Shown: positions 3,795 to 34,308, numbered from the stretch's first letter. The stretch: 64,000 nt of DNA from a virus (IMGVR_UViG_3300012007_000001:55238-119237), one strand, 5' to 3'. Notes: a model not told the origin generated them from the letters alone. Numbers and translations are program-made.

Positions 3795-3844
3795 AATCGA
3801 AATGCCTGTTTACTGTCGGCTCGTCAGTTCTAAATGGTTGTGAT

Positions 3845-3872
3845 AAGGCCGCATGGCTAATACAGCGGCCTT
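3845..3872. terminator. Intergenic hairpin (terminator or processing stem)
   Basis: AAGGCCGC-N12-GCGGCCTT inverted repeat; no clear U tract. Confidence 0.45.
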
Positions 3873-3884
3873 GTATGCTGTTTA

Positions 3885-4097
3885 TTATAATTCTTCGGGC
3901 TTGTGCATCCTGTCGTACTCCTCATCCCAAATGGCATCCAGTTCATCCTCTTCTGCATAGACATCGGTATTGTCGTACTTCAAAATCAGTCGCTTTGCGA
4001 AATTGATATGGGTCTTTGCCATTGCGCTGTCTGCGTTCATTATTGTCTGAGCGTCTGAAAGGTGGCTCATGATGGCGATTTGAATGTTGACTTGCAT
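3885..4097 (-). CDS. Hypothetical protein (start re-called at MQVNIQ)
   Basis: ATG lies 9 nt after a leader copy; the upstream in-frame extension is promoter/leader sequence. Confidence 0.7.
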   Translation of the reverse strand: MQVNIQIAIMSHLSDAQTIMNADSAMAKTHINFAKRLILKYDNTDVYAEEDELDAIWDEEYDRMHKPEEL

Positions 4098-4166
4098 AAT
4101 CTTCTGTGCCTGTTTGTCATCAGTCGGCTCTTCTGTTCTAAATGTTGTTGTTTCTTTTTGTTGGTA

Positions 4167-4198
4167 CAAAGGTAAGCAATTAAATTGAAACTACCAAA
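4167..4198 (-). promoter_or_regulatory. Bacteroidetes sigma-A promoter, leftward
   Basis: TTTG-N20-TACCTTTG on the minus strand. Confidence 0.75.
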
Positions 4199-4316
4199 TT
4201 TTTCAGCAGAAAAATAAAGTTATTTGCTTTATTTAACAGTTAAAACGGCAAAAACAAAAGAAAAGGGGTGCAATATCGCTTTTGCATCCCTATAATATAT
4301 ATGTATGGCAGAATTA

Positions 4317-4778
4317 TCAAATATCGCTGAAATCCAGTGTGCAGTCAAGAGCCTGCGCAACACTGAGGAGAAAATCGCAGTCAGACTTGTATTTACCGCG
4401 TTCCGCGCCGCATATTGCTGACCGCTTCGCGCCTATCATGTCTGCAAGCTGCTGTTCTGTAAGATGACGCTGCTTTCGTTTGTTGGCTATCTTTCGGCCA
4501 AGACGGATGCGCTTAATCATCCTGTCTTTCAAAAGCAAATCCTCATCACCCTTTCGGGCTTCTGCCACAAAAGCAATCTCTGCCAGCACAGAACCATCAC
4601 CATCATAGACGCGATACGCTGGAACCTTCACCGTGTTGAAGAAACTGACCTTCGGCGGCTGTGGGAAATCCTTACAATTATCGGCATAGAACGGCTCTAT
4701 CTGACCGTTACCCTCGGAGGCAAGCATCTGTGCAAGTCTGCGGGCATCATCTTCGTAATATTCTGAATATCTTTCCAT
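4317..4778 (-). CDS. XRE-family HTH regulator with an extra N-terminal domain
   Basis: C-terminal RKQRHLTEQQLADMIGAKRSAICGAERGK. Confidence 0.85.
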   Translation of the reverse strand: MERYSEYYEDDARRLAQMLASEGNGQIEPFYADNCKDFPQPPKVSFFNTVKVPAYRVYDGDGSVLAEIAFVAEARKGDEDLLLKDRMIKRIRLGRKIANKRKQRHLTEQQLADMIGAKRSAICGAERGKYKSDCDFLLSVAQALDCTLDFSDI

Positions 4779-4798
4779 GTGCGGTTAAATTTTTAGTG

Positions 4799-4830
4799 CA
4801 AAGATAAAGTTATTTGCTTACATTCCCAAA
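4799..4830 (-). promoter_or_regulatory. Promoter of the XRE gene overlapped by a palindromic operator
   Basis: TTTG-N20-TATCTTTG; AGATAA-AG-TTATTT at 4802-4815. Confidence 0.7.
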
Positions 4831-4862
4831 TTTATATGCTGTTTTTTATATCAAAATAACAT

Positions 4863-5300
4863 TTACGGCTTTATCAGTCCTGCATCTTCCAGTCTTTTGG
4901 AAATCTTATTATAGACAGCATCGACATCCGCATGAAATTCTGAATAGATATAATAATACATCTTCACGTTTTTGCAATTATGTGATATAAGCGTTTTCTT
5001 GCATCCTGTGACTTTGGCAATTTTGTCACGAATGCCACCTCTCTTCATCTTCCGACCACAAAATGTTTCGGGAGAATACAGATACAGGATGATGAAAATG
5101 AACTTAGACCGCTGAATCGTGTTATTCAGTTCCTTGATATTCGGATGCAATTCACGCATCGCAGATAAGAACATGTCGTAGATGTTGCCTATCAGCGAAA
5201 CGTCTGTCAGAATAGGGCATAGCAGTTTTCGCTCTTCTTCAAGTATTTGCTGCTTCCTTTTCTGTAAAGATTCCATTTGGATAATAATATTTTTCAGCAT
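4863..5300 (-). CDS. Hypothetical protein (Bacteroidales phage type, possible DNA binder)
   Basis: 145-aa ORF; KFIFIILYLYSP...G.R..IA motif. Confidence 0.75.
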   Translation of the reverse strand: MLKNIIIQMESLQKRKQQILEEERKLLCPILTDVSLIGNIYDMFLSAMRELHPNIKELNNTIQRSKFIFIILYLYSPETFCGRKMKRGGIRDKIAKVTGCKKTLISHNCKNVKMYYYIYSEFHADVDAVYNKISKRLEDAGLIKP

Positions 5301-5303
5301 AAA

Positions 5304-5387
5304 TTTGGATATTTGCGTTAAAACCAGTACCTTTGCAGCGTCGAGTAATTCGGGGTGTGGAATGTGCGAGCATCTGCCCCCTTTTTT
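5304..5387 (+). ncRNA. Candidate short antisense transcription unit
   Basis: TTTG-N20-TACCTTTG (5304-5335) followed by a GCGA-capped hairpin and T6 run, opposite to the operon. Confidence 0.45.
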
Positions 5388-5582
5388 ATTCTTCGCTGCT
5401 TTCGTTCTTTAATTCTTCACAGTCACCTTCCCGATAGGTAAAGCAAACCTGTATGTCATTACTCTTGCATTCTTCCCTGTACTGGCGGAGCAACTCAGAA
5501 CGTGTTAGTTCCAAGTTGTCCGTCAGAATATCAGTGTGGCGCACCTTTCGCAGTGTGCCGTTTTCTGTCACCCGTATTCTCG

Positions 5583-6338
5583 TTATTTTGAACATACTCC
5601 AAGTTTTTTCTTTTCAAGTTCCATCAATGTCAGTATGCAGTAGTTGGCCATATCCATCAATGAGTCATTGATGCTTTCTTGTTTGACCTGCCCCTCTGCC
5701 TCGGAAAGTACCTCGACACGGTTCAGCTTTTCTTCAAGGTGCATCCTTGCATACTTCATTCCATATTTCTCAAACAGCTTGGCAAACGAGTTGCCGTAGT
5801 CGTGATTCTTGGCCTTGAATGTGTCGGCCATCCATTCGGTGATACGCTTGAATCGGTCTGCATCGGTCATGTTCAGTTCAAAGTCGCGGATGTTCTTTTG
5901 CACCAGCTTTGCAATCTGACTGCTATGGAAATAGGGGATGACCTTGTTATCACCTTTCAGCTGCGGATATTTCTCCATGTACTCCAGTGCTGCATCCTTG
6001 CTGTTAAACAGAAGAACGGAAAGGTCATGCGCACCGCCCATGTGCATTGCACCTTTCTCGTCAATACGCTGGAATACATAATCGTACATGTTCTTTCTGT
6101 AACCTATCACCCATGCGTCAGGTCGAAGGTCGCCGATTCTGATGATTTCCTCGTCCTTTGCGTAGTGCCGTGCGTCATCGCGGCTTATGAACTTGAACGC
6201 CAGTTCGATGTCATTTGTATAGCTACCTTGAGACTGCATGAATGCCGTCTTGCAGCGTTGTGTTTCCGCATCAAACTGGCAGTCAACAACAACAAATAAA
6301 TTGTCTAACAGATATTCTTTCTTTTCCATAAACATCAT
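5583..6338 (-). CDS. DUF1599 / nucleotide-modification-associated domain protein with N-terminal extension
   Basis: KNHDYGNSF...EEKLNR...ESINDSLMDMANYCILTLME. Confidence 0.8.
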   Translation of the reverse strand: MMFMEKKEYLLDNLFVVVDCQFDAETQRCKTAFMQSQGSYTNDIELAFKFISRDDARHYAKDEEIIRIGDLRPDAWVIGYRKNMYDYVFQRIDEKGAMHMGGAHDLSVLLFNSKDAALEYMEKYPQLKGDNKVIPYFHSSQIAKLVQKNIRDFELNMTDADRFKRITEWMADTFKAKNHDYGNSFAKLFEKYGMKYARMHLEEKLNRVEVLSEAEGQVKQESINDSLMDMANYCILTLMELEKKKLGVCSK

Positions 6339-6940
6339 TTTGTACCTGTACTGCCAAAGCCGCCGTCACCGCGCTCACTTTCATCCAGCTTATCTACCAA
6401 TATAAGTTCTGTATTGGGTACTGGAAGAATTGCCATCTGACCAATCTTGTAGCCTTTTGCCAACGTCACGGAAGACTTGTCAACCTTGCCGTTTTCGTCA
6501 ATCCTGCTTGGTGTGGGGTGGTGATTATCGACAATACATCCGACTACACCACGGTAGCCTGCATCCACGATGCCAGTCTTTACTTCCGCATCTATGCGCT
6601 CGCCGTTTACATTCTCAAGCCCTTTCGACATATTCCCGCTTCGTGAACGGATGTATGCACAATAGCCTTGCGGCAGCTGTATGCAGAATCCCAATGGTAT
6701 CTGCTGACGGCCATGTTTCAATACCGTTTCCGATGGCAGATACAAGTCATAGCAGGCATCGTCATCATGTGCCTTTACTGGCATAATCCCACCTTCACGC
6801 AACACTATCTTGATGTCAACAGGAGCGTCATGCTCCACTTGCCACCAGTCAAGTTTTGCTACCATGAAGTTAAAATACAAGAAGATTGCCAAGAATGAAA
6901 AGGCAATGACAATTAACAATCCGATATTATTCAGTTCCAT
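6335..6940 (-). CDS. dut: Trimeric dUTPase (start uncertain, 6940 or 6865)
   Basis: Motifs ACYDL, RSG, GIVDAGYRG, IGQ, RGDGGFGSTG. Confidence 0.95.
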   Translation of the reverse strand: MELNNIGLLIVIAFSFLAIFLYFNFMVAKLDWWQVEHDAPVDIKIVLREGGIMPVKAHDDDACYDLYLPSETVLKHGRQQIPLGFCIQLPQGYCAYIRSRSGNMSKGLENVNGERIDAEVKTGIVDAGYRGVVGCIVDNHHPTPSRIDENGKVDKSSVTLAKGYKIGQMAILPVPNTELILVDKLDESERGDGGFGSTGTK

Positions 6941-7259
6941 TTTCGATAATTGATGTTTTTGTTTCACTAAATCTTTCCTTCAATTTCACGCAGAAGGATT
7001 TCGCGTCGTAATACACGGATTCGACATACCAAAGCGACTGCCTGAATCCGTTTCTTAACTGGATGGTATCAAACGGATAGCACACCCAATCGTTATTGTT
7101 ATGGAAACACTCCCAGCATTCCTGCCTGTCATGTACCAAACACATATCATGCGGATTCGTTGTCTTTGCGCTGTAGCATAGACGCTTTATCCAGTGTGCA
7201 TTGAACGGGATGCGTACAATCCCACCAGCCTTGATGGAATCGTACTCACCCTTTGTCAT
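6927..7259 (-). CDS. Hypothetical protein, possibly ASCH/PUA-like
   Basis: YDSIKAG...WIKRL...FDTIQLRNG pattern. Confidence 0.5.
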   Translation of the reverse strand: MTKGEYDSIKAGGIVRIPFNAHWIKRLCYSAKTTNPHDMCLVHDRQECWECFHNNNDWVCYPFDTIQLRNGFRQSLWYVESVYYDAKSFCVKLKERFSETKTSIIENGTE

Positions 7260-7552
7260 TTGATAATAGAGCCGCATTGTTCCGAAATCTTTTGTCTCAC
7301 AACCTTGTCTATTGCCCTATTCATAAACACAGTAAACATCCTGTCTGCAATCATAAGAATTGCCGCATAGGATGACATGAAAGCCGCCAATCCGTACTTC
7401 CAGCCATAGAACCACGTCACAGCCACACCGATAACGCCAGCAAGCATCAGCAATATGGCTGCAAGCATGAATTTTCTGTGATAGGCATAGATATAGATTC
7501 CCAGCTTATCCTCGTCTGTGATTTCGCACTTTAGTTCGTACATCAGTTTCAT
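7256..7552 (-). CDS. Two-TM membrane protein
   Basis: Two hydrophobic segments. Confidence 0.7.
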   Translation of the reverse strand: MKLMYELKCEITDEDKLGIYIYAYHRKFMLAAILLMLAGVIGVAVTWFYGWKYGLAAFMSSYAAILMIADRMFTVFMNRAIDKVVRQKISEQCGSIIK

Positions 7553-7555
7553 CTG

Positions 7556-8041
7556 CTACTGTTCGTATTCGGGCTTATCGTCCTGTTCTTTCTTCTTGTA
7601 CTCAAACACGTCGATTATGTTGGTTTCCGATACAGATGAGATAACATAGTCTATCATCGTACCACCCATGATTTCTTCGATGCCCTTTACAGCACTTTGC
7701 AGCGTACCAGCCTGCACAAGATAGCAGCAGTTCGTCCGTTTCTCCTTTTCCGTCTTTTCATCAATAGTGATGAATTGCAGCTTGGCCTTATACCAGCGGT
7801 CTGCCATTTCATCGTCATTGAAGAAAATCTCCTTGAATGGGCATTTCTTCATGTCATCAACCGTGAACTCGCCGCTGATGTACGCGGACATTTCCTCAAT
7901 CATGCGACCTTCGCCCTCGGTGAACGAAAGCGCATCGACAACGTAGTTTTCAGATACTTTCTTCTGTAAACCATCTTCCATTGTCTTTTCATACCGAATC
8001 TTTACATTAAACCATTCGGCTGTTCTACTTCTGTAAGCCAT
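7556..8041 (-). CDS. DUF4494-family protein
   Basis: WFNVKIRYEKTMEDG.QKKVSE.YVVDALSFTE.E...DRWYKAKL.FITIDEK. Confidence 0.9.
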   Translation of the reverse strand: MAYRSRTAEWFNVKIRYEKTMEDGLQKKVSENYVVDALSFTEGEGRMIEEMSAYISGEFTVDDMKKCPFKEIFFNDDEMADRWYKAKLQFITIDEKTEKEKRTNCCYLVQAGTLQSAVKGIEEIMGGTMIDYVISSVSETNIIDVFEYKKKEQDDKPEYEQ

Positions 8042-8046
8042 AATCT

Positions 8047-8580
8047 TTAATCTTCTTTTTTGTTAGACTTCATGTATTTAATTCTCTCGTTTACATAGTA
8101 TTCCAAATCCACGTCTTCCGACTTAGCCCAACTGATAATGAATCCCGTCATCATAATCACGCGCTTTTTGATGGGTACTACGGACATTACCAGCTTCGCA
8201 AAGGAAAAGCAGTTGTTATTGAACGTGAACTCCGTGAAATTGCGCTTAAATTCAGGCTCCAGTGCCTCAAAGTTCATTTCTTTTGCAGCGGCCAAATCCA
8301 AGACACCCAACATCAGGTCTGCGAACCGTTCTTCTGTTGACAATCGGATATATTGCCTGTAATTCCTTACGGGATTTGGCTTCTTGAACAGTCTGCGTTC
8401 ATTATTGTAATGCTCGTAACTTCCACGGTCTGCAATCCGCTTCAACTTCACTGCGATTCGCAAGGCTGTAAGATAATCCAGCAGCCTGACCAATCCCTCT
8501 CCGATGTCTGATTTGTCCCATAACCCAGCATTTAGGGCATGTATCTCTTTTGAAACTCTTTCAAGTTGTTCCTTTGTCAT
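8047..8580 (-). CDS. Hypothetical protein, degenerate MazG-like helical domain
   Basis: EERFADLMLGVLDLA resembles EELADxxIRLLDL; ..DLEYYVNERIKY. Confidence 0.45.
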   Translation of the reverse strand: MTKEQLERVSKEIHALNAGLWDKSDIGEGLVRLLDYLTALRIAVKLKRIADRGSYEHYNNERRLFKKPNPVRNYRQYIRLSTEERFADLMLGVLDLAAAKEMNFEALEPEFKRNFTEFTFNNNCFSFAKLVMSVVPIKKRVIMMTGFIISWAKSEDVDLEYYVNERIKYMKSNKKED

Positions 8581-8846
8581 GGATTCATAATTTTTTTGAT
8601 GTAGGCATCCCGCAGATGTTTGATGACATCGCCAACGTCACTTGCCTTGACATTCCACTGCCCCTCAATGTTAGACACATGAAACAGCGGCATACCACAC
8701 ACCACAATTTCGTTGATTAACTCGCCGTTTTCAACCCTGCATGTAGGATAAATCTCGGTCTCTGCCATTTCCACAGCTTTATTGCGCATATCCGTTTGTG
8801 TGCGCTCTGCGAAATAATTTTTGATTTTACTTAAACTAATTTCCAT
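8577..8846 (-). CDS. Hypothetical phage protein
   Basis: 89-aa ORF with ATGA overlap. Confidence 0.7.
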   Translation of the reverse strand: MEISLSKIKNYFAERTQTDMRNKAVEMAETEIYPTCRVENGELINEIVVCGMPLFHVSNIEGQWNVKASDVGDVIKHLRDAYIKKIMNP

Positions 8847-8847
8847 T

Positions 8848-9417
8848 TTATTTCCTATATTTTTGAAATTTATTACCCCAGTTTCCCGAATTATGTTTCC
8901 GAATTAAAGAACTTGCCTTATTCTTCATCATTTTATACATGTCATCACACCTTTCTCCCCATGCCAAATCGTTTTCGTATTCCGAATTTTCGCGCATATA
9001 CTTCATCTTGGCTTGTATCATTTCAGATAATTCCTTGATGTCGTTATGTATCTCATAATTCAAGGTCTTGTCTGTGCGATGCAACACGTCGTTGATGTCA
9101 TTGATGCAGGATTCCATAATGTCGATAGCCATAAACAGCGTTACATTCAACATCTTTATTTCATCCCTATCATCCTGAGGCAAAGGCACATCCTTAAACT
9201 CCATCTCTTCATATTCTTCATTCACTTCGTCGAGATAAGCCTGCACTACAGTTCCGAAAAGGACTTCAATGACCTTGCCCAATGCTAAAGCGGCATCAAA
9301 GTCTTTTTTCTGCTGCAAGAGATACTGCTGTGTCCGCAATCCCTTCACCTTCGGGTCGGCTTCAAACTTGTTGCGTATCTGAGACATTAACTCAGCTGGT
9401 ATATCCTTTGCTTCCAT
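8848..9417 (-). CDS. Hypothetical phage protein
   Basis: 189-aa ORF in operon. Confidence 0.75.
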   Translation of the reverse strand: MEAKDIPAELMSQIRNKFEADPKVKGLRTQQYLLQQKKDFDAALALGKVIEVLFGTVVQAYLDEVNEEYEEMEFKDVPLPQDDRDEIKMLNVTLFMAIDIMESCINDINDVLHRTDKTLNYEIHNDIKELSEMIQAKMKYMRENSEYENDLAWGERCDDMYKMMKNKASSLIRKHNSGNWGNKFQKYRK

Positions 9418-9418
9418 A

Positions 9419-9973
9419 TCAGAATTTCAATGTTTGCTGTTCACCGACAATCTGTTTCTTTCGCATATCCCAATACCTGCACGATGCCAGCCTTGCGACC
9501 GTCAGCCTTTCTTCAAGGAACAGCTTACGCGCACCACTGCGATTACTTAGCTTTTTCGGCTCGTAGCTGAGATAGCCACGTTCATCATACCAAATAACAG
9601 CAGGGTAGAACTGCGTCACGCGGTTTTCAAATTCGCTTTCGTGGTTGTAGAGCAAGCCTATCTTTTTCCATTCAGCCTGAAACAACTCCAACGCCTTTTC
9701 ACGTATCGACTTTGGCAGGCAGTAATAGAATCTATACACCTTTTCGTCATTGTGAAAGATGTCTTTCTTGAAGTCTGCCCTCAAATCCTCGATTGAACGC
9801 TTGATTTCTATTTCCGTCAGATAGCCGCTTTTGTTGACAATGGCGAGGTCTGCCTCATGATTCAGCAAGCCCCATGACAGGTTAGGGATGATGATGTCAT
9901 TCCGTACACTGGCCATGCCCGAACCGAATATCAGCGCGTTTTCTATGTCACGCACACTTAGATTCGTGTCCAT
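9419..9973 (-). CDS. MmcB-like PD-(D/E)XK nuclease
   Basis: EADL.......LTEIEIKRSIEDLRADFKK. Confidence 0.75.
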   Translation of the reverse strand: MDTNLSVRDIENALIFGSGMASVRNDIIIPNLSWGLLNHEADLAIVNKSGYLTEIEIKRSIEDLRADFKKDIFHNDEKVYRFYYCLPKSIREKALELFQAEWKKIGLLYNHESEFENRVTQFYPAVIWYDERGYLSYEPKKLSNRSGARKLFLEERLTVARLASCRYWDMRKKQIVGEQQTLKF

Positions 9974-10725: not shown

Positions 10726-10727
10726 AG

Positions 10728-10868
10728 TAGAGGGAGCAGGGCTCGAACCTGCGACACACACAATCCATGTGTAACTTCATGTATGCGAGGCTGCTATTCT
10801 TGCGCTCGTATTTACAGCCATCCTCCCGTTCCATATACGGGTGTGCTAACCAACTACACCATCCCCCT
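10728..10868 (-). ncRNA. tRNA-like element with a 72-nt variable-region insertion
   Basis: AGGGGGA/TCCCTCT acceptor, GTGT/GCAC D stem, CCCGT/ACGGG stem with ATATGGA loop, GCAGG-TTCGAGC-CCTGC T arm. Confidence 0.7.
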
Positions 10869-17230: not shown

Positions 17231-17232
17231 AC

Positions 17233-21430: not shown

Positions 21431-22237
21431 TTATTTTTTCTTGACTGCCTTTTTCCTTGCCGACAATGCCGCCGATATGACTGCAAATCCACCTTGGCTC
21501 ACCTGACCGTTGTAACTGTTATAGATTTCAGTCAGCTGCTTGATAGTCGTGGCCTTCTCGATTTCCGAAAGTGCCTTTTGCACAAGTGCCGTCTCTTCAT
21601 TCTGAGGAGCCTGTGCGGTCGGTGCGGGGATGCCTACTTGCGGTGTTCCTGTAGGTGCTGGCAAACTGCTTTCCGATGACGGAGCAGGCTGCTCTTGGTT
21701 CTGAATGGTTTTGGGCGTATGTGCGTTTGGATAACTGTATCTTAACCGTCCGAAAGCATCCACGATGACCAGTTTATTAATCTTGCGGCTGTCATTGTAG
21801 CCGATGTCGCTTACAAAGAACCAGTTGTTCCGAACCTTGCCGTCTTTGCCGAAATCGTCTTGGCAAAGGTTGATGAACAGGTCTTTTGGCGCAGAATAGA
21901 GTTCGCGGCCAATGCCGATGTTCACGCAGGCACGTTTGAATGCGTCACTGGCCTCGCCTTTCTCCTTGGCCGTGAACGATTCCTTTCCGACATCCTGCTT
22001 CGATACCCACTGCTTAGTGGTCTCGTCATAGATTTCTACCGTACAGAACAGTTCAGTGTCAATCAGCTGGTGGCTTCGCTTCCATCCGAAAATCCCGAAT
22101 GTCTCATCGAGCACGGCTTGGTCGCAGCGGGCATCCTTATACAATGCCAGCTGACACCAGCTGTTGTTTTTCGCTGTCTGTAGCACCCTGCACTGGATTT
22201 CCTCCGCCCGCAGGGTTCTGATTTCTACATTTCGCAT
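21431..22237 (-). CDS. Sak/Rad52-family single-strand annealing protein
   Basis: YKDAR.....LDETFG..GW, KQDVG, EKGEASDAFKRA.V..GIGRELY. Confidence 0.9.
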   Translation of the reverse strand: MRNVEIRTLRAEEIQCRVLQTAKNNSWCQLALYKDARCDQAVLDETFGIFGWKRSHQLIDTELFCTVEIYDETTKQWVSKQDVGKESFTAKEKGEASDAFKRACVNIGIGRELYSAPKDLFINLCQDDFGKDGKVRNNWFFVSDIGYNDSRKINKLVIVDAFGRLRYSYPNAHTPKTIQNQEQPAPSSESSLPAPTGTPQVGIPAPTAQAPQNEETALVQKALSEIEKATTIKQLTEIYNSYNGQVSQGGFAVISAALSARKKAVKKK

Positions 22238-22920: not shown

Positions 22921-22991
22921 TTGGAGAAACGGGAGTCGAACCCATACAAACAGACCCAAATTCTGTTGTGCTACCATTACACCATTCTCCA
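22921..22991 (-). tRNA. tRNA-Gln(TTG)
   Basis: TGGAGAA/TTCTCCA acceptor, D arm GTGT-AATGGTA-GCAC, ACAGA-ATTTGGG-TCTGT, T loop TTCGACT; CCA not encoded. Confidence 0.9.
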
Positions 22992-23211: not shown

Positions 23212-23283
23212 TACCCCATGCAAGAATCGAACTTGCCTTGACAGGTCGAAAACCTGTAGTCCTAACCGATAGACGAAAGGGGC
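23212..23283 (-). tRNA. tRNA-Glu(TTC)
   Basis: GTCTATCGGTTAGGAC D arm, ACAGG-TTTTCGA-CCTGT, GCAAG-TTCGATT-CTTGC; one T-T mismatch in the acceptor. Confidence 0.85.
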
Positions 23284-26937: not shown

Positions 26938-28224
26938 ATGGCAACTTTAAAAGTAGAACTTGGCAATCCCGCGAAAGACGGTAGCCGCAAACTTTACATC
27001 ATCCTTTCACACGCCTGCACCCGCAGACGCATCCCGACAACTATATCTGTCGAAGGAAAGGAAGTGTCTGCCAAAACTGGCAGAATCATATCGTCACAGA
27101 AGCAGCACCTCATTGATGACTTGGTGGCAGAATACAAAAACAGGATTTATCAGCTTGACTTGGAACTGACTGGCGCACGGGTGGATGCCGATTACATCTA
27201 CCAGCGCATCACGTCATCGAAGCCGAAGAATGATGAATACGATTTCTTCCAGTTCACGGAAGAATGGCTCAAAGGTAAGGGCAAAGAGAAAAAGAACTAT
27301 GCCACGATGCTGAACTCTGTGGAAAAATACCTTGGGCGGCGCAAGCTGTCATTCAAGGATATTGACTACATGTTTCTAAAGGGATATTCTGACTACATGA
27401 GCCAGTATCAACGGGCGCAGTCGCACTATCTTGGACTAATTAGACACATCCACAACCTTGCACGGAAAACATACAACACAGACGGACAAACGGTAATACC
27501 TTCAACTGCCATCGAGAACTTCGATTTTCCACGTCAGCAGTTAAAGGGCGGCAGGGCTATGGATATTGACATCCTTCTGCGTGTGTTCCGCTACCAGCCT
27601 ATAGGCCGACGCGATACGCTTGCCCGTGACTGTGCCATCATTTCCTTCTGTTTCATGGGCATGAACTCCGTTGATATGTTCAATGCTACATCGTTCAAGC
27701 GGGGTGTGCTGGCCTACAACCGCACCAAGACCGAAGGGCGGCGTTCCGACAATGCCTATATCGAGGTCAAGATGTATGACCGTATCAAAGACTTGATGCG
27801 CAAGTATTCTGATGATACCCGCGTTTTCAGCTTTCACAAGCGATTCTCGACACCTGCCAGCTTCAACAGAGCACTGAACATCGGGCTAAAGACCATCATG
27901 GATGCCATCAATGCAGAAATTTCGCTGGAGAACAGGAAGCGGAAGCCAAAGGACAGGACAAAGATGCTTGATACCTTGCAATTCTACCAGTTTAGGCACA
28001 CATGGGCTACTGTAGCAAGAAACAATGTCGGAATAGACAAGTACACCGTTCACGAATGTTTGAACCATATCGACGCTGATACACGAATTGATGATGTCTA
28101 TATCAAGAAAGATTTCGGAATCGTCAATGCCGCTAATGCAAAGGTGTTGGATTATGTGTTTGGCCTGCTGGATGAACAAGAGCAACAAGAGAACAACAAG
28201 AAAGCAACAAGGTTAAACGTCTGA
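26938..28224 (+). CDS. int: Tyrosine integrase (Bacteroidetes type)
   Basis: N-terminal arm-binding domain, SAM-like domain, GMNSVD, YNRTKT, YQFRHTWAT, LNH, catalytic Y in DDVYIK. Confidence 0.95.
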   Translation: MATLKVELGNPAKDGSRKLYIILSHACTRRRIPTTISVEGKEVSAKTGRIISSQKQHLIDDLVAEYKNRIYQLDLELTGARVDADYIYQRITSSKPKNDEYDFFQFTEEWLKGKGKEKKNYATMLNSVEKYLGRRKLSFKDIDYMFLKGYSDYMSQYQRAQSHYLGLIRHIHNLARKTYNTDGQTVIPSTAIENFDFPRQQLKGGRAMDIDILLRVFRYQPIGRRDTLARDCAIISFCFMGMNSVDMFNATSFKRGVLAYNRTKTEGRRSDNAYIEVKMYDRIKDLMRKYSDDTRVFSFHKRFSTPASFNRALNIGLKTIMDAINAEISLENRKRKPKDRTKMLDTLQFYQFRHTWATVARNNVGIDKYTVHECLNHIDADTRIDDVYIKKDFGIVNAANAKVLDYVFGLLDEQEQQENNKKATRLNV

Positions 28225-28314: not shown

Positions 28315-28318
28315 TCCG

Positions 28319-28756: not shown

Positions 28757-29187
28757 TTCACATGTAATAAGTTTCTTGCTTCACGTTCCGAATACCCTAT
28801 CTTCATTGCTTCATCACGTATCATAAACGACTTCTTTTGAAGAAACTCCTTCAATTTGATAAGGTTCTGTTCCATCGCCTCCCGTGGTGTGCCGTAAATC
28901 ATCAGGTAGTTCCAATGGTCTGCACCATAGCTGAATGGCAATCTGTAGCCAGTGATGTAGTAGTGAACGTGGTACTTTCCATCAATGTCAGACTTAGTAA
29001 CTTCAATTTTCTTAATCTTTCGCGGTGTGACCTTCTCGATTTCATCCAGCCCCCACAGACACGGGATATAGACTGTATCGCCGACGTTGAAGCGCGGCAC
29101 TGGCTTGATAGTTGCCAAGTCAATGACATCAGCATTCAGTGCAAGTTCCAGTTGGTGCGCCCTAATCTTTGCCTCTATTCTTTTCAT
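28753..29187 (-). CDS. Hypothetical protein (paralogue of 28319-28756)
   Basis: NVGDTVY...W....KIKKIEV...YYI. Confidence 0.7.
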   Translation of the reverse strand: MKRIEAKIRAHQLELALNADVIDLATIKPVPRFNVGDTVYIPCLWGLDEIEKVTPRKIKKIEVTKSDIDGKYHVHYYITGYRLPFSYGADHWNYLMIYGTPREAMEQNLIKLKEFLQKKSFMIRDEAMKIGYSEREARNLLHVK

Positions 29188-29491
29188 ACTCTTCGATTGC
29201 CTGTTTGCCTACATTGGTAATGCAATACCCTGTATTCGTTCCACTGAATGCACGACTATACCATTTCACCAGCCCCCTCTTTGCCATCTTGCCAAGCAGT
29301 GACCCAGCGCAAAGCCATGCCTTTTTACCAGCACATGCACCATTGCCGCCGTTGCTGACAGCTTCAAACAGATACCGCTTTTCTTCATCTTCACCCCACA
29401 ATGCAAGGGCAAAGCTATTAGCGGGCATCGGGCGTGAAAAGGTGGTTTTCTCCAGTACCTTCAATGCCTTATAGGTCTTTTCCGTAATCAT
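29162..29491 (-). CDS. wHTH-like hypothetical protein
   Basis: LGKMAKRGLV...YCITNVGKQAI. Confidence 0.65.
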   Translation of the reverse strand: MITEKTYKALKVLEKTTFSRPMPANSFALALWGEDEEKRYLFEAVSNGGNGACAGKKAWLCAGSLLGKMAKRGLVKWYSRAFSGTNTGYCITNVGKQAIEEYEKNRGKD

Positions 29492-30437
29492 ACTTTAGTA
29501 ACATCCATTTCACCATTAAAATACTTCATCGTTGGATTGCGCCAGTCACATGAAAGACATTTGACCATACGTTTCCCGTCATTACGAATGTACTTTTTCA
29601 TAACAAGAAACGTGTTGCACGTCCTTTTTGATTCAAACAATGCGTATTTCCTTTTAGTACGAAACACATCGCCATCTGCCAAATCAAACAGCATCATAAC
29701 GTCTTGACACAACGCAGGGCGAAATCCAGTGCTTCAATCTGATGCTGGCACTTCGCGGCCTTGTCATACAACTTCAACTTTTCAGCATCCTGCATTTCCG
29801 CATTCAGCTTTTCGACCTTCTCCTCGATGGTCTGAATAATCAACTTTCTATCTTCCATATCAACCTAATATTTTATTGTGAATTTTCTCTTGCAGTTCAA
29901 TATGAATATCCTGCAATCCTGTTTCAAAATACTGCGCTTCCGCTGTTGGAGAAAATATGCCCTTCAATGACAGACAATGAAGATAATGACATTTCTCCAG
30001 CATCTCCAGTTGTTTTGCCGTGAACTTTTTACGCTTCACGTCTTTTAATTTCATCTTTGCCATATTACTTATAATTTACCATTCGTTTAACCGTGAATAA
30101 TAATCTTTCTAACACATCTATTTTGTCATCGCTTTCTTGAACATCGTCAATAATAGCAATCAATTCTTCGCGTTCTTTCTTCGTCATGGCCTATTCCTCC
30201 ATCGCTTTACGAAAATCATCAAACATATAGTCAATGTCACGTCCTTTTACAAGATAGTCATTTATATGGCTTTTCAGCCATTCGCAAGCATCATCTATTA
30301 CTTTCTTGTTTGACCATTCCACGATTCTTACGGCCACGCCAGTAGTTACCTCATAGTCGGATAAAAGTTCATGCCCTATTTCGGTCATCAACTCTGCCGC
30401 CTTTTTCCGTACTTCTTCTTGTTTAATCATCATATTG

Positions 30438-32306
30438 TTACTTGAAATATTTGTTTCTGAATGCCTGTGAAAACAGTGTGCGCTCTACCAGTGTATAGGT
30501 CTCTTTCTCCTTTGCCGTGATAGGCCGCTTCCACTTCAACCTGTTCTTTATCGTATCAATGGCCACACGCACAATCGACTCAGCTGTTATGCCGTCTTTC
30601 GGCTGTAAGCCCTTTGCCATCATCTGACCCACGAACATCTTTATATATTCGTTTTCAGCCTCCAGTTCTTTCAGGTACATGGTCTTGAACTCCTTCAACA
30701 AACGCACAAATCTGTAATACTTTGACCTGTGCAGGCGCGAATTGAGGTAGTACTCAACATCTTCAATCTTCATGTCATCGTAATTCAGAATGCCGTCGTT
30801 GTCAAGGGCGACCCGAATTGAAACGCGATTCTTCCGCTTGCTATCTTCCCAATAACCGCGTACCTCATTCGTTGGCATGTATTTAATCAAGAAATCGTAA
30901 TTATCCCAATAGCCTTTACGCAAACCATCATCCAGTTTCTCCAGTGTGTAGATTCCGCTGGCTGGCAGTTCAGGGGCAGACCATTTGTTAGTGTAGTATT
31001 TCACGAAATCATGCTCGTCATTAAAATGATAGCCGCGTTCCGTGCTATACTTCGCTACTATAATCAACACGCGCTTACCTTCGCAAAGCTGGCTGTTCAT
31101 AGACTTCATCCATTCTTCGACAGACGGCCTACCATCGCCAAGTGCTCTGCTGGCATCCAGTTCATACCGAAGCTGAATCTGTTCATCCGTGAATCCTTCC
31201 ATCTTGATAAGACTGCCTGTAACGGTGTGCGGCGAAAACACATCGGAGCGTTCTACCAATCCCTGCATCAAGAAAGCCACCTGCGTATATTGCTTGCGAA
31301 AACTTTCTGATTCAAGTGTTCCGCTGACATGTGTGTACTGCCTCTCCTTTTCAAGAATCTTTAGGTATTCTTCTTTGTTCGGGTACATCCTATCAAACAG
31401 ATAGATGTGTTCAGAATCTATCTTATAGAGGTTCTCACCGTTCCGAATAAGAAATACCGTATGATGGTTGGGTATATTCATTATCCTGTTTGTCATTGCA
31501 CCGCCAATGCTGCCTTCTTCTGCATACTTCTTATCCGTCCGACGCGGCTTGACGGCCACCATAGACTTCTCGTCAGGCATGAACTCCTTGAAGCGGTCAT
31601 TCTGCAACAGCCATTCGTCGAACTTGTCAACCTTCTGCCAGTCGAAATCGTCATCAATCAATGCCAGTTCCTCATCCATAAAGATTACGGCCTGCCTGAA
31701 TACTATCGGAGTGGTTTCGGGTGCTGGTTCGCCAGCGTGTAACTGTTCCACGCTTTCCTTGATGCCCGCATAGGTCTCGATGGTCTGAATGACATAATCC
31801 AGCCTTTTGACCTCACGCCCCATCTTTTCTATCATATCACGCATAGGCCGAAGCCGTGCCTCCAGTTCCCGTGTTTTCCGCTGAATCATTATATCAGCAT
31901 ACTTTCGGGTCTTTTCGGCCACGATTGCAGCCCTGTTGATATTCTCACGCAGAATCATCAAAGTGTCTTTACTGCCAAGCGACATCAAAGCCGTATCGCT
32001 GCTTTCCGTAAACTCTTCAAAGGTTTCTCCGTTCAGCAGTCTTTCGGCCATCTGCTTAATCTTTTCGACATCAACACCCAGCACACTGTAATAATGCAGG
32101 TTGTCTTTTCCGATTCTGTAATCCTTCTTGAAGGTGTTATCTATCACCTCCAGCGTTTCAGGGTTCACAGTGTCAACGACTACGCTCCCATCATCATTGA
32201 CGGCCTTAATCCTGTAGATGTCATCACGGTCGTACAGGTAGCATCCGACCTTCAACTCTTCATTGACGGCCAGCTGCAAATCCGCTTTCTTGATGATTCC
32301 GTTCAT
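30438..32306 (-). CDS. Large hypothetical phage protein (622 aa) with coiled coil
   Basis: Long ORF; motifs RQAVIFMDEE, LIRNGENLY, QGLVERS; function not recognised. Confidence 0.85.
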   Translation of the reverse strand: MNGIIKKADLQLAVNEELKVGCYLYDRDDIYRIKAVNDDGSVVVDTVNPETLEVIDNTFKKDYRIGKDNLHYYSVLGVDVEKIKQMAERLLNGETFEEFTESSDTALMSLGSKDTLMILRENINRAAIVAEKTRKYADIMIQRKTRELEARLRPMRDMIEKMGREVKRLDYVIQTIETYAGIKESVEQLHAGEPAPETTPIVFRQAVIFMDEELALIDDDFDWQKVDKFDEWLLQNDRFKEFMPDEKSMVAVKPRRTDKKYAEEGSIGGAMTNRIMNIPNHHTVFLIRNGENLYKIDSEHIYLFDRMYPNKEEYLKILEKERQYTHVSGTLESESFRKQYTQVAFLMQGLVERSDVFSPHTVTGSLIKMEGFTDEQIQLRYELDASRALGDGRPSVEEWMKSMNSQLCEGKRVLIIVAKYSTERGYHFNDEHDFVKYYTNKWSAPELPASGIYTLEKLDDGLRKGYWDNYDFLIKYMPTNEVRGYWEDSKRKNRVSIRVALDNDGILNYDDMKIEDVEYYLNSRLHRSKYYRFVRLLKEFKTMYLKELEAENEYIKMFVGQMMAKGLQPKDGITAESIVRVAIDTIKNRLKWKRPITAKEKETYTLVERTLFSQAFRNKYFK

Positions 32307-32835
32307 ATTCTAAATGGTTTTGAATGATTCTTATTTATACTTTTCTGCATACCAGTCCATCGCCATGTCCTCAAAATGGCCGACGCTGGCATCTTTGGAT
32401 TCGTCACCGTATTTTGCGGCGACTTCCGCTCTTGATGAAATGTACTCGACCTTTTCACCGTCTTTTCTTTCAAACCGCATCTCATACCGCTCATCGTGTT
32501 CACAATAGCGTGACATGCTTTTCAAATCGTGCTCTATGGTGAAGAGCAAAAACTTCTTGTCTTCCATTTTTCCGTTTTTTATTATAAGACCTTTTTTAAT
32601 TTGTTCAGTGCTTCGTCGCGTGTCTTGCCCCAACAGGCAGGATTCACATTGCCGTCATTGTCGATGATTTCAGCAGCAAGATACCAAAAATCATATTCCC
32701 ATTCGCTGTATTCCTTCTTGGCTTCACGAATCGTTTCAAACTCATCCACAATATCCTGTGTGCCTTTGTTGCACACTGCAATACTGATGCAGATGGTATA
32801 ACCTTTATACTTAACTTCCTTCATTTCCGTATGCT

Positions 32836-33354
32836 TTAGAATGTTTGACCCCAGCCCTCATTACGATGGTATTCAGCCAGCTTGCAGCCGAAACTATTGT
32901 AATAATAGACCACTTCATCACGTTCCTTGGTGTAGTCACCCTCTTGGGCTGTCTGCTGTAGGTAAGCCATGAACTCATCCTCGCTGACATGCGCCCTGTT
33001 GTACTCGTCGAAATCCAGTATCTTCATATTGAATGCTTTTGGCAGTTTCCTTGTCTGTTTCCGAAATCCGTTGTGCCACTTACAGGCATCAATGAAATCT
33101 GCTGTCGTGACCTTTTCGCCATCGCCAAGCAGGTGCATCAGCTGTGCAAAAACCTCTATCGGGCAACTGTGCGCCCTTCCGTTTATCTGAGCCGTCACAA
33201 CAAAGGCATTCTGCCTGTTGTCGTATTCGCAGACGGCATCACATTCAAGGTAGGCTTTGGCAAGTTCTGTCATCGCCCTGCACTCTTGCATGTACTTACC
33301 CAATGCAACCTGTGCGCGTTGTGCGACCTTCCGCAGCTTTGTTTCATCTTTCAT
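32836..33354 (-). CDS. Hypothetical phage protein
   Basis: 172-aa ORF in operon. Confidence 0.7.
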   Translation of the reverse strand: MKDETKLRKVAQRAQVALGKYMQECRAMTELAKAYLECDAVCEYDNRQNAFVVTAQINGRAHSCPIEVFAQLMHLLGDGEKVTTADFIDACKWHNGFRKQTRKLPKAFNMKILDFDEYNRAHVSEDEFMAYLQQTAQEGDYTKERDEVVYYYNSFGCKLAEYHRNEGWGQTF

Positions 33355-33878
33355 AAGTTCGGCCAGTATTTATAATCGTTCTCGTTCAATCTGTCACTGA
33401 ATACATTTCTCATGTGGGTATCTTCAAACGGCTTGTTACCGTGATTCTTGACCCTGTAGATGTATTGCTCTGCATCATCATCGACCTGTGCATACTTCCA
33501 GCGTTCCAAGGCAGCGTAGAATGTTCGCTTCTCGTCGGCTGTCAGGTCTGAATAGCTGCAAAGCGTTCTTTCATGCGCCTGTTCATACAATCCGACTATA
33601 GCGGCCAGTTCGATGCTGATATTGCCTTTCATCGGTTCTTTGACATAAATCCTGAACAGGTCTCTCAATCCGAAACGAATGGGTATCTGATTCCATTTGT
33701 TCGGCTCAAGCCCCTTGCGATGCAGCAGGGTTGCAATATCCGTCGTTGTCTTGACTGCTGGTTTATTCATATCCTTAGAAGCACTTATATACCTTATTAT
33801 ATATATTCTCTCCGTGTAATACCTTGATGACGGCCAGCATAGCGTTCTGCATATCATATCGCTTGTTACAGTCATCAA
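33351..33878 (-). CDS. Hypothetical phage protein (true start probably at MNKPAV)
   Basis: ORF in operon; 5' extension overlaps the upstream gene. Confidence 0.65.
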   Translation of the reverse strand: MMTVTSDMICRTLCWPSSRYYTERIYIIRYISASKDMNKPAVKTTTDIATLLHRKGLEPNKWNQIPIRFGLRDLFRIYVKEPMKGNISIELAAIVGLYEQAHERTLCSYSDLTADEKRTFYAALERWKYAQVDDDAEQYIYRVKNHGNKPFEDTHMRNVFSDRLNENDYKYWPNL

Positions 33879-34035
33879 TCGTCATGCAATCCTTATCCAG
33901 TAGGCTGTCGAAATACTTTTTGAAGTCTTTCAGCCCGAAGTATTTGGCAACCTCTGAGCATACCTCTGTGTGCAAGTTATCGGCGGTCATATCCTGCCAC
34001 TCCATAACCTTCTGAATGAATGTTTTCTTTGCCAT
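33775..34035 (-). CDS. First gene of the leftward block, preceded by the conserved leader
   Basis: 86-aa ORF; leader at 34044-34084. Confidence 0.75.
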   Translation of the reverse strand: MAKKTFIQKVMEWQDMTADNLHTEVCSEVAKYFGLKDFKKYFDSLLDKDCMTIDDCNKRYDMQNAMLAVIKVLHGENIYNKVYKCF

Positions 34036-34100
34036 ATCTCTTGTGCCTTTGTTTATGCTGTCGGCAGCAGTCTAAATGTTGTTGTTTCTGTTATCTGATG

Positions 34101-34237
34101 CAAATTTACGAATAATATTTGAATTGACAATGAAATATTTAATTTTTAACACAAAATTAACCTTTGCTAAATAAAGTTATTAAATTAAAGATTTTAGACT
34201 AAAAGTTTGCATAATAAATTTATTTGCTTTATCTTTG
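34101..34237. promoter_or_regulatory. Divergent promoter pair with two palindromic operators
   Basis: TAAATTTG (minus, 34101-34108); TTTG-N20-TATCTTTG (plus, 34206-34237); operators at 34169-34182 and 34212-34225. Confidence 0.75.
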
Positions 34238-34308
34238 CACCCATAAAGCGAAAGCAAAACCATTTAGAAGCGGATGCGCCAACCGTTCAAACAGGCACGT
34301 AATATAAT

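What the first reader, a model, noticed from the sequence alone, without database searches (positions are those of the whole stretch)
3803..34297. Four-copy covarying 5' leader with pseudoknot geometry in front of early genes
Seen in sense orientation, 8-11 nt before an ATG: 3803-3840(-) AACCATTTAGAA CTG ACGAGCCGA CAG TAAACAGGCA; 4107-4150(-) AACATTTAGAA CAG AAGAGCCGA CTG ATGACAAACAGGCA; 34044-34084(-) AACATTTAGA CTG CTGCCGA CAG CATAAACAAAGGCA; 34256-34297(+) AACCATTTAGAAG CGG ATGCGCCAA CCG TTCAAACAGGCA. The stem middle pair covaries (T-A, A-T, T-A, G-C), and the invariant loop GCC is complementary to the invariant downstream GGC after an AAAC linker, as in an H-type pseudoknot. Three copies directly follow TAnnTTTG promoters, and the downstream genes are unrelated. 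Inference: an undescribed cis-acting RNA element (translation enhancer in SD-less Bacteroidetes, protein- or ligand-binding switch, or antitermination site). The helices are only 3-5 bp, so the fold would need tertiary contacts or a protein.
Basis: partly seen in the sequence, partly recalled or inferred. Interest (0 to 1): 0.8.

Follow-up and report, generated by a model that had tools for sequence, protein, structure and literature searches.

The report
Phage mRNA leader with matching sRNA
A 119-kb phage of Bacteroidota starts at least eleven of its operons with the same ~45-base RNA leader: a box that matches a small phage RNA exactly, then a tiny co-varying hairpin or pseudoknot just before the start codon. 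It looks like an undescribed phage-wide translation control circuit.

Summary
The whole 119,237-bp phage genome has 11 full copies, and a narrow clade of related metagenomic phages yields 41 distinct variants. Every copy is sense to a gene, with GGC 9-12 nt before the ATG. The 3-bp stem pairs in all 41 (A-U 24, U-A 15, G-C 2), and the same loops occur with both stem versions. Loop GCC and tail GGC change together to ACC/GGU in two relatives. There is no Rfam match. A stringent pattern gave only 2 hits (a chance level) in 596 Gb of prokaryote genomes.

The invariant 5' half, AAAACCAUUUAGAA, is the exact complement of the unpaired seed of a 98-nt phage sRNA encoded outside the window. That sRNA has its own promoter and terminator. 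Its stems co-vary and its seed is invariant across seven relatives. A second anti-leader sequence sits in a 3' UTR.

Best reading: a two-module translation-control leader, made of an antisense-RNA pairing box plus a mini hairpin/pseudoknot at -45 to -10. The direction of regulation and the actual fold are inferred.

Earlier notes of this scan on this same genome described both the leader and the sRNA. Nothing was found on other DNA.

The parts
34256..34299 (+). Full leader copy (pairing box, CGG/CCG stem, 9-nt loop with GCCAA, A-rich linker, GGC); ATG of a 116-aa ORF at 34309
   Evidence: R1 score 56.7 bits
34230..34237 (+). Bacteroidota-type -7 promoter box TATCTTTG, 24 nt upstream of the box core
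   Evidence: spacing statistics
34042..34083 (-). Full leader copy (AACAAC-type box, CTG/CAG stem, 7-nt loop); ATG of an 86-aa ORF at 34035
   Evidence: R1 48.9 bits
34101..34108 (-). -7 promoter box TAAATTTG of the divergent minus-strand unit
4105..4149 (-). Full leader copy (AACAAC-type box, CAG/CTG stem, 9-nt loop); ATG of a 70-aa ORF at 4097
   Evidence: R1 65.2 bits
4167..4174 (-). -7 promoter box TACCTTTG
3801..3841 (-). Full leader copy between two cistrons with no promoter (CTG/CAG stem, 9-nt loop); ATG of an 89-aa ORF at 3794
   Evidence: R1 56.4 bits
3845..3872 (-). GC-rich hairpin at the end of the 70-aa gene, directly before the intercistronic leader. The same arrangement occurs in three relatives
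32300..32321 (-). Short form: exact 14-nt pairing box ending 2 nt before the ATG (32306) of a 622-aa ORF, with no hairpin. Predicted duplex with the sRNA -23.7 kcal/mol
58857..58872 (-). Short form: partial box plus ATG (58859) of a 276-aa ORF. Weak sRNA match (-10.3 kcal/mol) but strong match to the 3'-UTR anti-leader (-26.0 kcal/mol)
59438..59450 (-). Box-only site about 30 nt before the ATG (59409) of a 94-aa ORF. Complementarity to the sRNA extends past the seed

Best explanation
The element is a two-module 5' leader that acts on the mRNA around translation initiation.

Module A is the box AAAACCAUUUAGAA, or its AACAAC variant. It is a pairing site for phage-encoded antisense RNAs. The main one is a 98-nt sRNA (genome minus strand 9675-9772, outside the window) whose unpaired seed UUCUAAAUGGUUUU is the exact complement of the box. 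The second is a terminator-proximal 3'-UTR sequence at about 27.5 kb, which pairs best with the variants that the sRNA pairs poorly with.

Module B is a 3-4-bp hairpin (C-N-G / C-N'-G) with a 7- or 9-nt loop ending in GCCRA, followed by an A-rich linker and GGC at -12 to -10. The loop GCC most likely pairs with that GGC to give a minimal H-type pseudoknot, stabilised by A-rich-linker contacts, the ribosome or a protein. The pseudoknot would abut the 30S platform in a host whose ribosomes do not use Shine-Dalgarno pairing.

Inferred logic: module B sets efficient or positioned initiation on the leader-bearing operons. Accumulation of the antisense RNAs masks the A/C-rich box, shutting these operons down together. 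In the short forms the box sits at -16 to -3, so pairing would cover the ribosome-binding region itself.

Shown: copy number, orientation, spacing, covariation, the sRNA gene with its conserved seed, and the complementarity. Inferred: that the fold forms, that the sRNA is expressed, and that the effect is repression.
For: Copies and placement:
- 11 full copies in the genome, all sense and each followed by an ATG.
- They sit at operon starts roughly every 8 kb.

Statistics on 41 distinct variants:
- GGC-to-ATG gap is 9-12 nt.
- A promoter lies at a variable 12-24 nt upstream, and is absent in 11 of 41.
- The stem pairs in 41/41 (A-U 24, U-A 15, G-C 2); PK triplet is GCC/GGC 39, ACC/GGU 2.
- 100% of 222 cells are paired and 0/500 shuffles reach the observed covariation; slid controls give 1-37%.
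- Four different loop sequences each occur with both stem versions, and the stem flips within at least 7 groups that share the downstream gene.
- ACC/GGU occurs in two diverged orthologues.

sRNA gene:
- It has a TAYCTTTG promoter, three hairpins and a 14-bp terminator with a U tract.
- MFE -44.3 kcal/mol, z -7.5.
- In seven relatives whose neighbouring protein is 57-98% identical, 4 pairs show double compensatory changes while the seed is invariant and unpaired.
- It is single-copy in G000 and in G001.

Complementarity:
- sRNA against 15 leader sites: mean -17.4 kcal/mol versus -9.6 for shuffles, 0/200 shuffles as good.
- 3'-UTR element: mean -22.5 versus -11.2, 0/200.
- Genome-wide there are 17 sites at or below -14 kcal/mol, against 0-6 for five control seeds, and the best sites are the leaders.

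The modules are separable. Box-only sites exist at window 32300, 58857 and 59438. One hairpin-only copy has a decayed box (L134:5415).
Against: - There are no expression data, so the sRNA, its timing and the sign of regulation are all inferred.
- In full leaders the box lies about 38-52 nt upstream of the ATG, outside a normal 30S footprint, so simple occlusion does not explain repression there.
- The two helices are only 3 bp each, and leaders fold weakly in silico (-5 to -18 kcal/mol per ~100 nt, apart from one of -25.5 that includes an upstream hairpin).
- Pseudoknot covariation rests on one pair in two related sequences, possibly a single event.
- The fourth pairs of both helices are not conserved (19/41 and 13/41).
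- Two of the 11 leaders pair with the sRNA over only about 9 bp (-10.6 and -13.2 kcal/mol).
- G/U-rich RNAs pair readily with A/C-rich leaders, which inflates the energies for the 3'-UTR element.
- Paralogous leaders can exchange sequence, so the counts overstate the number of independent events.
- Seed and box are invariant in all relatives, so no seed-target co-variation could be tested.
Confidence: 0.55

Rival explanations
1. Protein-bound translational operator. The hairpin loop GCCRA, the AAAC linker and GGC are contacts for a phage or host RNA-binding protein (RegA- or coat-protein-like logic). They do not pair with each other. The protein, with or without the sRNA, sets translation of the whole leader set.
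For: - The unpaired nucleotides are the most conserved, and the helices are too short to fold alone.
- Loop length (7 or 9 nt) and linker length (6-10 nt) vary, as tolerated by many protein sites.
- The phage encodes candidate RNA binders: a WYL_2 Sm-like protein directly behind one leader and near the sRNA gene, and an ASCH-like gene (note, not checked here).
Against: - GCC to ACC and GGC to GGU change together in two diverged orthologues, with no mismatched intermediate.
- No protein partner was identified or tested.
Confidence: 0.2
2. Recombination cassette. The promoter-leader unit is kept alike by gene conversion, and serves mainly as a homology patch for shuffling gene modules, like the PeSL promoter/stem-loop cassettes of T4-type phages. 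It would have no regulatory fold of its own.
For: - Near-identical leaders precede unrelated genes.
- Whole hairpin variants swap between orthologous positions in relatives.
- PeSLs are documented in PMC2839356 and PMC4122927.
Against: - Homology patches do not need a 9-12-nt distance to the ATG, a stem that never mismatches while its middle pair flips under the same loop, or a trans RNA with an invariant complementary seed.
- Intercistronic copies lack the promoter half.
Confidence: 0.07
3. Small ligand-sensing pseudoknot, of the size class of the preQ1-I riboswitch. A metabolite stabilises the GCC/GGC helix next to the start site and gates translation of all leader-bearing operons.
For: - The core is 33-37 nt, a hairpin plus an A-rich tail whose GG pairs with loop CC.
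- Invariant unpaired nucleotides resemble a binding pocket.
- The resemblance to preQ1-I and luteovirus pseudoknots comes from my own knowledge and was not tested.
Against: - No Rfam riboswitch family matches, even at E up to 10.
- Stem 1 is 3 bp.
- Downstream genes share no pathway.
- Eleven copies per genome is not a known riboswitch pattern.
Confidence: 0.06
4. Transcription-level element: a nut/put-like antitermination signal, or a DNA operator for the phage's sigma-r4/alpha-CTD-like protein.
For: - Most copies sit just downstream of promoters at operon starts.
- Intercistronic copies follow terminator-like hairpins.
- The phage encodes a protein with Sigma70_r4 and RNA_pol_A_CTD hits.
Against: - Spacing is fixed to the ATG, not to the promoter or a terminator.
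- Occurrence is strictly sense-strand.
- A flip from CAG/CTG to CTG/CAG changes the DNA sequence a protein would read but keeps RNA pairing.
- The leader comes after, not before, the hairpins.
- A complementary trans RNA exists.
Confidence: 0.05

Closest known systems
GcvB-type sRNA regulons (a G/U-rich seed targeting C/A-rich elements in and upstream of ribosome-binding sites; own knowledge, Sharma et al. 2007)
   Same: One sRNA has a conserved, unpaired U/G-rich seed flanked by structured hairpins and an intrinsic terminator. It is complementary to A/C-rich boxes in the 5' UTRs of many unrelated mRNAs, some well upstream of the start codon.
   Different: Here both the sRNA and all its predicted targets are phage-encoded. 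The target box is a near-identical 14-mer, not a loose motif. It is coupled to a conserved hairpin/pseudoknot. The host phylum lacks Hfq (own knowledge) and does not use Shine-Dalgarno pairing (PMC7797042).
T4 post-transcriptional control: the RegA translational repressor of many early mRNAs, and the gene 32 leader pseudoknot (review PMC3014915)
   Same: A phage-wide set of mRNAs shares a recognition element at the initiation region, giving coordinated shut-off. A small pseudoknot sits upstream of an unstructured A-rich stretch leading to the AUG.
   Different: RegA and gp32 are proteins and no such protein is identified here. The trans factor indicated by the sequence is RNA. The gene 32 pseudoknot is a single autoregulatory site, not an 11-copy leader.
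Minimal H-type pseudoknots with a 3-bp second stem and an A-rich third loop (luteovirus frameshift pseudoknots, preQ1-I aptamer; own knowledge)
   Same: Hairpin loop nucleotides pair with a short G-rich segment after an A-rich linker. The overall size is about 30-37 nt. In preQ1-I the 3' helix lies at the ribosome-binding region.
   Different: Stem 1 is only 3-4 bp, against 5 bp in those examples. There is no Rfam match, no frameshift context and no queuosine-related genes. The fold has not been shown.
PeSL promoter/stem-loop cassettes of T4-type phages (PMC2839356, PMC4122927)
   Same: A conserved promoter-plus-hairpin unit is repeated many times in a phage genome in front of unrelated small genes.
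   Different: PeSLs combine an early promoter with a terminator stem-loop and are read as recombination sites. Here the hairpin lies inside the 5' UTR at a fixed distance from the ATG, co-varies, occurs without the promoter, and has a trans antisense partner.
Phage antisense RNAs such as P1/P7 c4 (own knowledge)
   Same: A phage-encoded small RNA acts in trans on complementary sequences in a phage mRNA leader to control translation.
   Different: c4 has one target operon (icd-ant) and is processed from the same transcript. Here one free-standing sRNA matches at least 15 sites across the genome.

Membership tests
Any Rfam 15 family (including DUF2693, DUF2693-FD, Bacteroidales/Bacteroides motifs, preQ1 classes) | Match to the family covariance model at the gathering score, or at least a suggestive E-value | tested here: not met
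   The only matches at gathering score across the whole genome are tRNAs. No relevant match at E up to 10 around the window copies, nor at E up to 5 around the sRNA and the copy upstream of the WYL_2/DUF2693 gene.
H-type pseudoknot | A hairpin stem supported by covariation | tested here: met
   41/41 variants pair. The middle pair is A-U 24, U-A 15, G-C 2. Four loop sequences each occur with both stems. 0/500 shuffles reach the covariation score.
H-type pseudoknot | Hairpin-loop nucleotides pair with a segment 3' of the hairpin, supported by covariation | tested here: inconclusive
   Complementary in 41/41: GCC/GGC 39 and ACC/GGU 2 (L134:5415, L260:9671), with no mismatch. Only one pair varies, possibly one event. 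Flanking fourth pairs are not kept.
H-type pseudoknot | The fold forms in solution | not testable with these tools
   Nested-structure folding gives only weak structures. No pseudoknot energy model or probing is available.
Trans-acting base-pairing sRNA with a multi-target regulon | Own transcription unit: a promoter and an intrinsic terminator, with no ORF | tested here: met
   A TAYCTTTG box is conserved in all seven homologues. A 14-bp stem is followed by a U tract. This is by sequence only; expression was not tested.
Trans-acting base-pairing sRNA with a multi-target regulon | A conserved single-stranded seed flanked by co-varying structure | tested here: met
   29 predicted pairs, 4 with double compensatory changes and many G-U/G-C switches. 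The seed columns are invariant and unpaired. z = -7.5.
Trans-acting base-pairing sRNA with a multi-target regulon | Complementarity to several mRNAs at or near the initiation region, beyond chance | tested here: met
   The exact 14-mer, or near matches, occur at 11 leaders plus short forms. There are 17 sites at or below -14 kcal/mol against 0-6 for control seeds. Mean energy is -17.4 against -9.6 for shuffles, 0/200.
Trans-acting base-pairing sRNA with a multi-target regulon | A regulatory effect on targets, rescued by compensatory seed/target mutations | not testable with these tools
   Needs reporter assays. Seed and box are invariant in all relatives found, so natural co-variation could not be scored.
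preQ1-I riboswitch | Family model match, a 5-bp P1, and association with queuosine/preQ1 genes | tested here: not met
   No Rfam match. The stem is 3-4 bp. Downstream genes are unrelated small ORFs, DUF3560, Amidoligase_2 and WYL_2.
PeSL-type mobile promoter/stem-loop cassette | An early promoter joined to a terminator stem-loop, lying at indel or replacement boundaries between close genomes | tested here: inconclusive
   The promoter plus leader recurs before unrelated genes. But the hairpin is a 3-bp UTR stem next to the ATG, and 11 of 41 copies lack the promoter. Breakpoint mapping between G000 and G001 was not done.
nut/put-type antitermination site | Acts on the elongating polymerase, lies upstream of terminators, and has no constraint relative to start codons | tested here: not met
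   GGC-to-ATG spacing is 9-12 nt in 41/41. Intercistronic copies lie after, not before, the hairpins.

The most novel reading that the evidence does not exclude
The GCC:GGC mini-helix, always at -12 to -10, is a cis-supplied stand-in for the Shine-Dalgarno helix. It would dock on the 30S platform of Bacteroidota ribosomes, whose own anti-SD is sequestered, and so give phage mRNAs privileged, correctly spaced initiation. The phage sRNA and the 3'-UTR RNA then switch this privilege off for the whole set of operons. That would be a self-contained phage translation-initiation system plus its RNA off-switch.
Probability: 0.1. Interest if true: 0.92.

Novelty: new variant of a known kind. Interest (0 to 1): 0.72.

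Why it matters
Little is known about how phages of Bacteroidota get their mRNAs translated by ribosomes that ignore Shine-Dalgarno sequences. I know of no phage-encoded sRNA described for this phylum, and two literature searches found none.

This case offers a compact and fully specified test system:
- a 45-nt leader present 11 times per genome
- a 98-nt sRNA with a perfectly conserved complementary seed
- natural variants that already separate the two modules

If confirmed, it would show a phage running a genome-wide post-transcriptional switch with its own RNA. It would also provide a portable leader/sRNA pair for gene-expression control in Bacteroides or Prevotella. The mini-pseudoknot may further show what a strong initiation signal looks like in an SD-blind host.

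Tried and rejected
- **Rfam.** Searches at gathering score and at permissive E-values found only tRNAs.
- **GenBank phages.** blastn of the divergent promoter region found no match.
- **First IMG/VR pattern scan.** It gave 99 stretches, nearly all single chance hits. Only one related 116-kb record (G001) had several.
- **The genome search pattern on the own genome.** It returned 0 although the copies are there, so I used a script instead.
- **Distant relatives.** Found through TerL (61-69% identity, 79 IMG/VR loci, 1.29 Mb, plus L140-L142) and through the ASCH-like neighbour (about 55%, L257 and L259). None has the leader. The motif is confined to a narrow clade, so no deep alignment is possible.
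- **Whole ENA/Logan/metagenome records.** These cannot be searched, so sRNA and leaders could be seen together only in G000 and G001.
- **Possible diverged sRNA in L141** (R2, E 0.0014). No matching targets were found in the 21 kb held, so I dropped it.
- **Outer helix UUU(A)/(U)AAA around the hairpin.** Both sides are invariant, and the one variant is not compensated, so there is no support either way.
- **Fourth base pairs of both helices.** Not conserved.
- **Extension of sRNA pairing into the hairpin.** None.
- **Pairing of GGC or the loop with the 16S 3' end.** Judged from memory of the Bacteroidota sequence only: no convincing match, and not tested with a tool.
- **Repeats in L141.** These are a different repeat family and were not pursued.
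Full report
**What is there.**
The window is bases 55238-119237 of a 119,237-bp IMG/VR virus record with direct terminal repeats. After laying the whole genome in the script box, a loose regular expression found 11 full copies. Ten are on the minus strand and one on the plus strand. Each is sense to an ORF that starts a few bases downstream.

A covariance model built from the 11 copies (R1) recovers them at 49-70 bits. It finds 11 equivalent copies in one close relative, G001 (116 kb). The copies sit at roughly 12.7, 20.5, 29.3, 37.9/37.65, 45.7, 51.8, 59.4/59.07 and 89.3/89.5 kb, which are the heads of successive gene blocks. The tape-measure gene and the structural block at 99-119 kb lack the leader. 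One copy heads the block that runs into terminase and portal, so 'early genes' is not established.

**Anatomy.**
From 5' to 3' the leader has five parts:
- an A/C-rich tract ending in the box AAAACCAUUUAGAA (variant AACAACAUUUAGA)
- a stem C-N-G / C-N'-G around a loop of 7 or 9 nt that always ends GCCRA
- a 6-10-nt linker containing AAA
- GGC
- 9-12 nt, then ATG

I collected 60 instances from the genome, G001, metagenome contigs and contigs fetched through TerL and a neighbouring gene. Of these, 41 are distinct.
- The promoter box TAnnTTTG lies 12-24 nt upstream in 30 of them and is missing in 11.
- The copies without a promoter lie between cistrons, several directly after a GC-rich hairpin.
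- So the element is tied to the start codon, not to the promoter, and it never occurs antisense to a gene. The one antisense site is the sRNA locus described below.

**Is it more than chance, and is it known?**
- A composite pattern has 0.00 expected matches in shuffles of the window.
- A stricter pattern hits 7 times in this genome, but only twice in 596 Gb of prokaryote genomes, as single hits in unrelated phyla.
- R1 finds nothing in 1.29 Mb of phages whose terminase is 61-68% identical, nor in other distant relatives.
- Rfam 15 has no match at the gathering score or at permissive E-values. That includes the copy in front of the WYL_2 (former DUF2693) gene.

The motif is therefore real, undescribed, and confined to a narrow clade with terminase identity of 84% or more. 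One neighbouring protein is named as from a Prevotella MAG, which is only a weak host hint.

**Covariation.**
On the model-based alignment, all 222 cells of the six proposed pairs are standard pairs. None of 500 shuffles reaches the observed covariation, and slid controls give 1-37% pairing.
- The middle stem pair is A-U 24, U-A 15, G-C 2, with no mismatch.
- Paralogous leaders can exchange sequence, so raw counts overstate independent events.
- Even so, four loop sequences each occur with both stem versions, and the stem flips within at least seven groups that share the same downstream gene. That is hard to obtain without selection for pairing.
- The outer, fourth pair is present in only 19 of 41.
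- For the loop-to-tail helix, GCC/GGC is invariant except in two diverged orthologues of the 45.7-kb copy. There it reads ACC/GGU, a compensatory change, and no mismatched intermediate was seen.

This supports the pseudoknot geometry, but it rests on one pair and possibly one event. The leaders are otherwise weakly structured in silico.

I checked it. On the minus strand at 9675-9772 there is:
- a TACCTTTG promoter box
- two hairpins
- an unpaired stretch containing UUCUAAAUGGUUUU
- a 14-bp terminator with a U tract

The 14-mer is the exact complement of the leader box. The RNA folds at -44.3 kcal/mol, z = -7.5, with the seed unpaired.

Using the protein encoded just upstream as a handle, I fetched five more homologues. 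Their neighbouring protein is 57-79% identical to that of G000. Across seven sequences the three hairpins keep pairing through 4 double compensatory changes and many G-U/G-C switches. The promoter box and the seed do not change. It is single-copy in G000 and in G001 and is absent from Rfam. This is the signature of a trans-acting base-pairing sRNA.

**Targets.**
- A genome-wide duplex scan with the seed gives 17 sites at or below -14 kcal/mol, against 0-6 for five control seeds.
- The best sites are the leaders, plus short forms that carry only the box.
- One short form ends 2 nt before the ATG of a 622-aa ORF (window 32300-32321; -23.7 kcal/mol). Others are at window 58857-58872 and 59438-59450.
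- Over 15 sites the mean is -17.4 kcal/mol against -9.6 for shuffled seeds, and 0 of 200 shuffles do as well.

A second anti-leader sequence turned up as a weak hit of the sRNA model. The 3' UTR of a 219-aa gene at about 27.5 kb carries a U/G-rich stretch containing the same core, directly before a terminator. It is identical in G001. It pairs best (-22 to -30 kcal/mol; mean -22.5 against -11.2 for shuffles, 0/200) with the AACAAC-type leaders that the sRNA pairs poorly with. G/U-rich RNA pairs easily with A/C-rich RNA, so I treat this second element as suggestive only.

**Mechanism.**
Shown:
- an RNA-level, start-codon-linked, two-module leader
- a conserved sRNA gene whose invariant seed matches module A
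- a co-varying stem and a complementary loop/tail in module B
- separability of the modules, since box-only sites exist and one hairpin-only copy has a decayed box (L134:5415)

Inferred:
- The sRNA and the 3'-UTR RNA pair with the box and repress translation of the leader set. In short forms they would do this by covering the initiation region directly. In full leaders they would mask an A/C-rich enhancer or standby site, or disturb the adjacent pseudoknot.
- Module B helps or positions 30S binding. GGC sits at -12 to -10, where a Shine-Dalgarno helix would lie, and Bacteroidota ribosomes sequester their anti-SD (PMC7797042, PMC9976891).
- Activation instead of repression, or an effect on RNA decay, cannot be excluded.

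**Rivals.**
- A protein-bound operator is the main alternative for module B. The ACC/GGU change argues for RNA-RNA pairing, but only weakly.
- A PeSL-like recombination cassette (PMC2839356, PMC4122927) explains the repetition. It does not explain the ATG spacing, the never-mismatched stem or the trans RNA.
- A ligand-sensing mini-pseudoknot is not excluded, but it has no family match or gene logic.
- Antitermination or a DNA operator fits poorly. The spacing is to the ATG, occurrence is sense-only, the stem flips alter the DNA sequence a protein would read while keeping RNA pairing, and the leaders lie after rather than before the hairpins.

**Verdict.**
It needs the addition of a phage sRNA that matches its invariant half.

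I class it as a new variant of a known kind, namely an sRNA-controlled 5' leader with a small pseudoknot, and not as a member of any described family. Earlier notes of this scan had described the leader and the sRNA on this same genome. A sequence look-up found nothing on other DNA.

Noticed in passing
genome G000 minus strand 9675-9772 (L100:9675-9772:-), outside the window: 98-nt sRNA gene with its own promoter and terminator, three co-varying hairpins and an invariant unpaired seed complementary to the leader box. Conserved in seven relatives and absent from Rfam.
   Followed up: yes
genome G000 minus strand about 27500-27565 (L101:8500-8565:-), outside the window: 3' UTR of a 219-aa gene carrying a second anti-leader sequence directly before an intrinsic terminator. 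It lies in the operon headed by the leader at 29.3 kb, so it could be a 3'-UTR-derived sRNA or a 5'-3' contact within one mRNA.
   Followed up: partly
window 21698-21725 (+): A 26-28-nt stretch nearly identical to the sRNA seed plus the 5' arm of its terminator, antisense inside a 297-aa ORF. Equivalently, it is an extended target site within that coding region. No matching 3' terminator arm follows.
   Followed up: no
window 47264-56155 (-): A reverse transcriptase (PHROG 1423, E 6e-54) lies next to a 2255-aa ORF. I confirmed only the RT match.
   Followed up: partly
window 10728-10868 (-), 22921-22991 (-), 23212-23283 (-); L102:6446-6518 (-): Four tRNA matches in the genome. One is 141 nt long with a large insert. 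One lies at 45.45 kb, just downstream of the leader at 45.7 kb and a 15-aa ORF. That ORF is 68 aa in relative L138, and earlier notes call the tRNA initiator-like with anticodon GAC.
   Followed up: no
L260:14131-17445; L257:14133-16499: In some relatives the large terminase carries Hint/LAGLIDADG intein domains, giving products of 788-1104 aa against 451 aa here.
   Followed up: no
genome G000 35573-36535 (-); L134:14758-15705; L138:14696-15634: A conserved ~315-aa protein with Sigma70_r4, RNA_pol_A_CTD and HTH_17 hits, possibly a phage transcription factor for the operons that lack the leader. The G000 coordinates are the syntenic ORF and were not scanned themselves.
   Followed up: no
L140:8997-10301; L141:17074-18261: More distant relatives (TerL about 68%) lack the leader and encode a methionyl-tRNA formyltransferase-like protein beside an HTH gene.
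   Followed up: no
L100:12359-12703 (-); L252:1-202: A WYL_2 (former DUF2693, Sm-like barrel) protein is encoded directly behind one leader and 1.3-2.6 kb upstream of the sRNA gene in two lineages. It is a candidate RNA-binding partner. The Rfam DUF2693 motifs do not match here.
   Followed up: partly
L141:15326-15586: Two runs of a perfect 12-nt tandem repeat inside a 358-aa ORF of a distant relative. Also a separate family of ~280-400-nt repeat units at L141:3850-7340.
   Followed up: no
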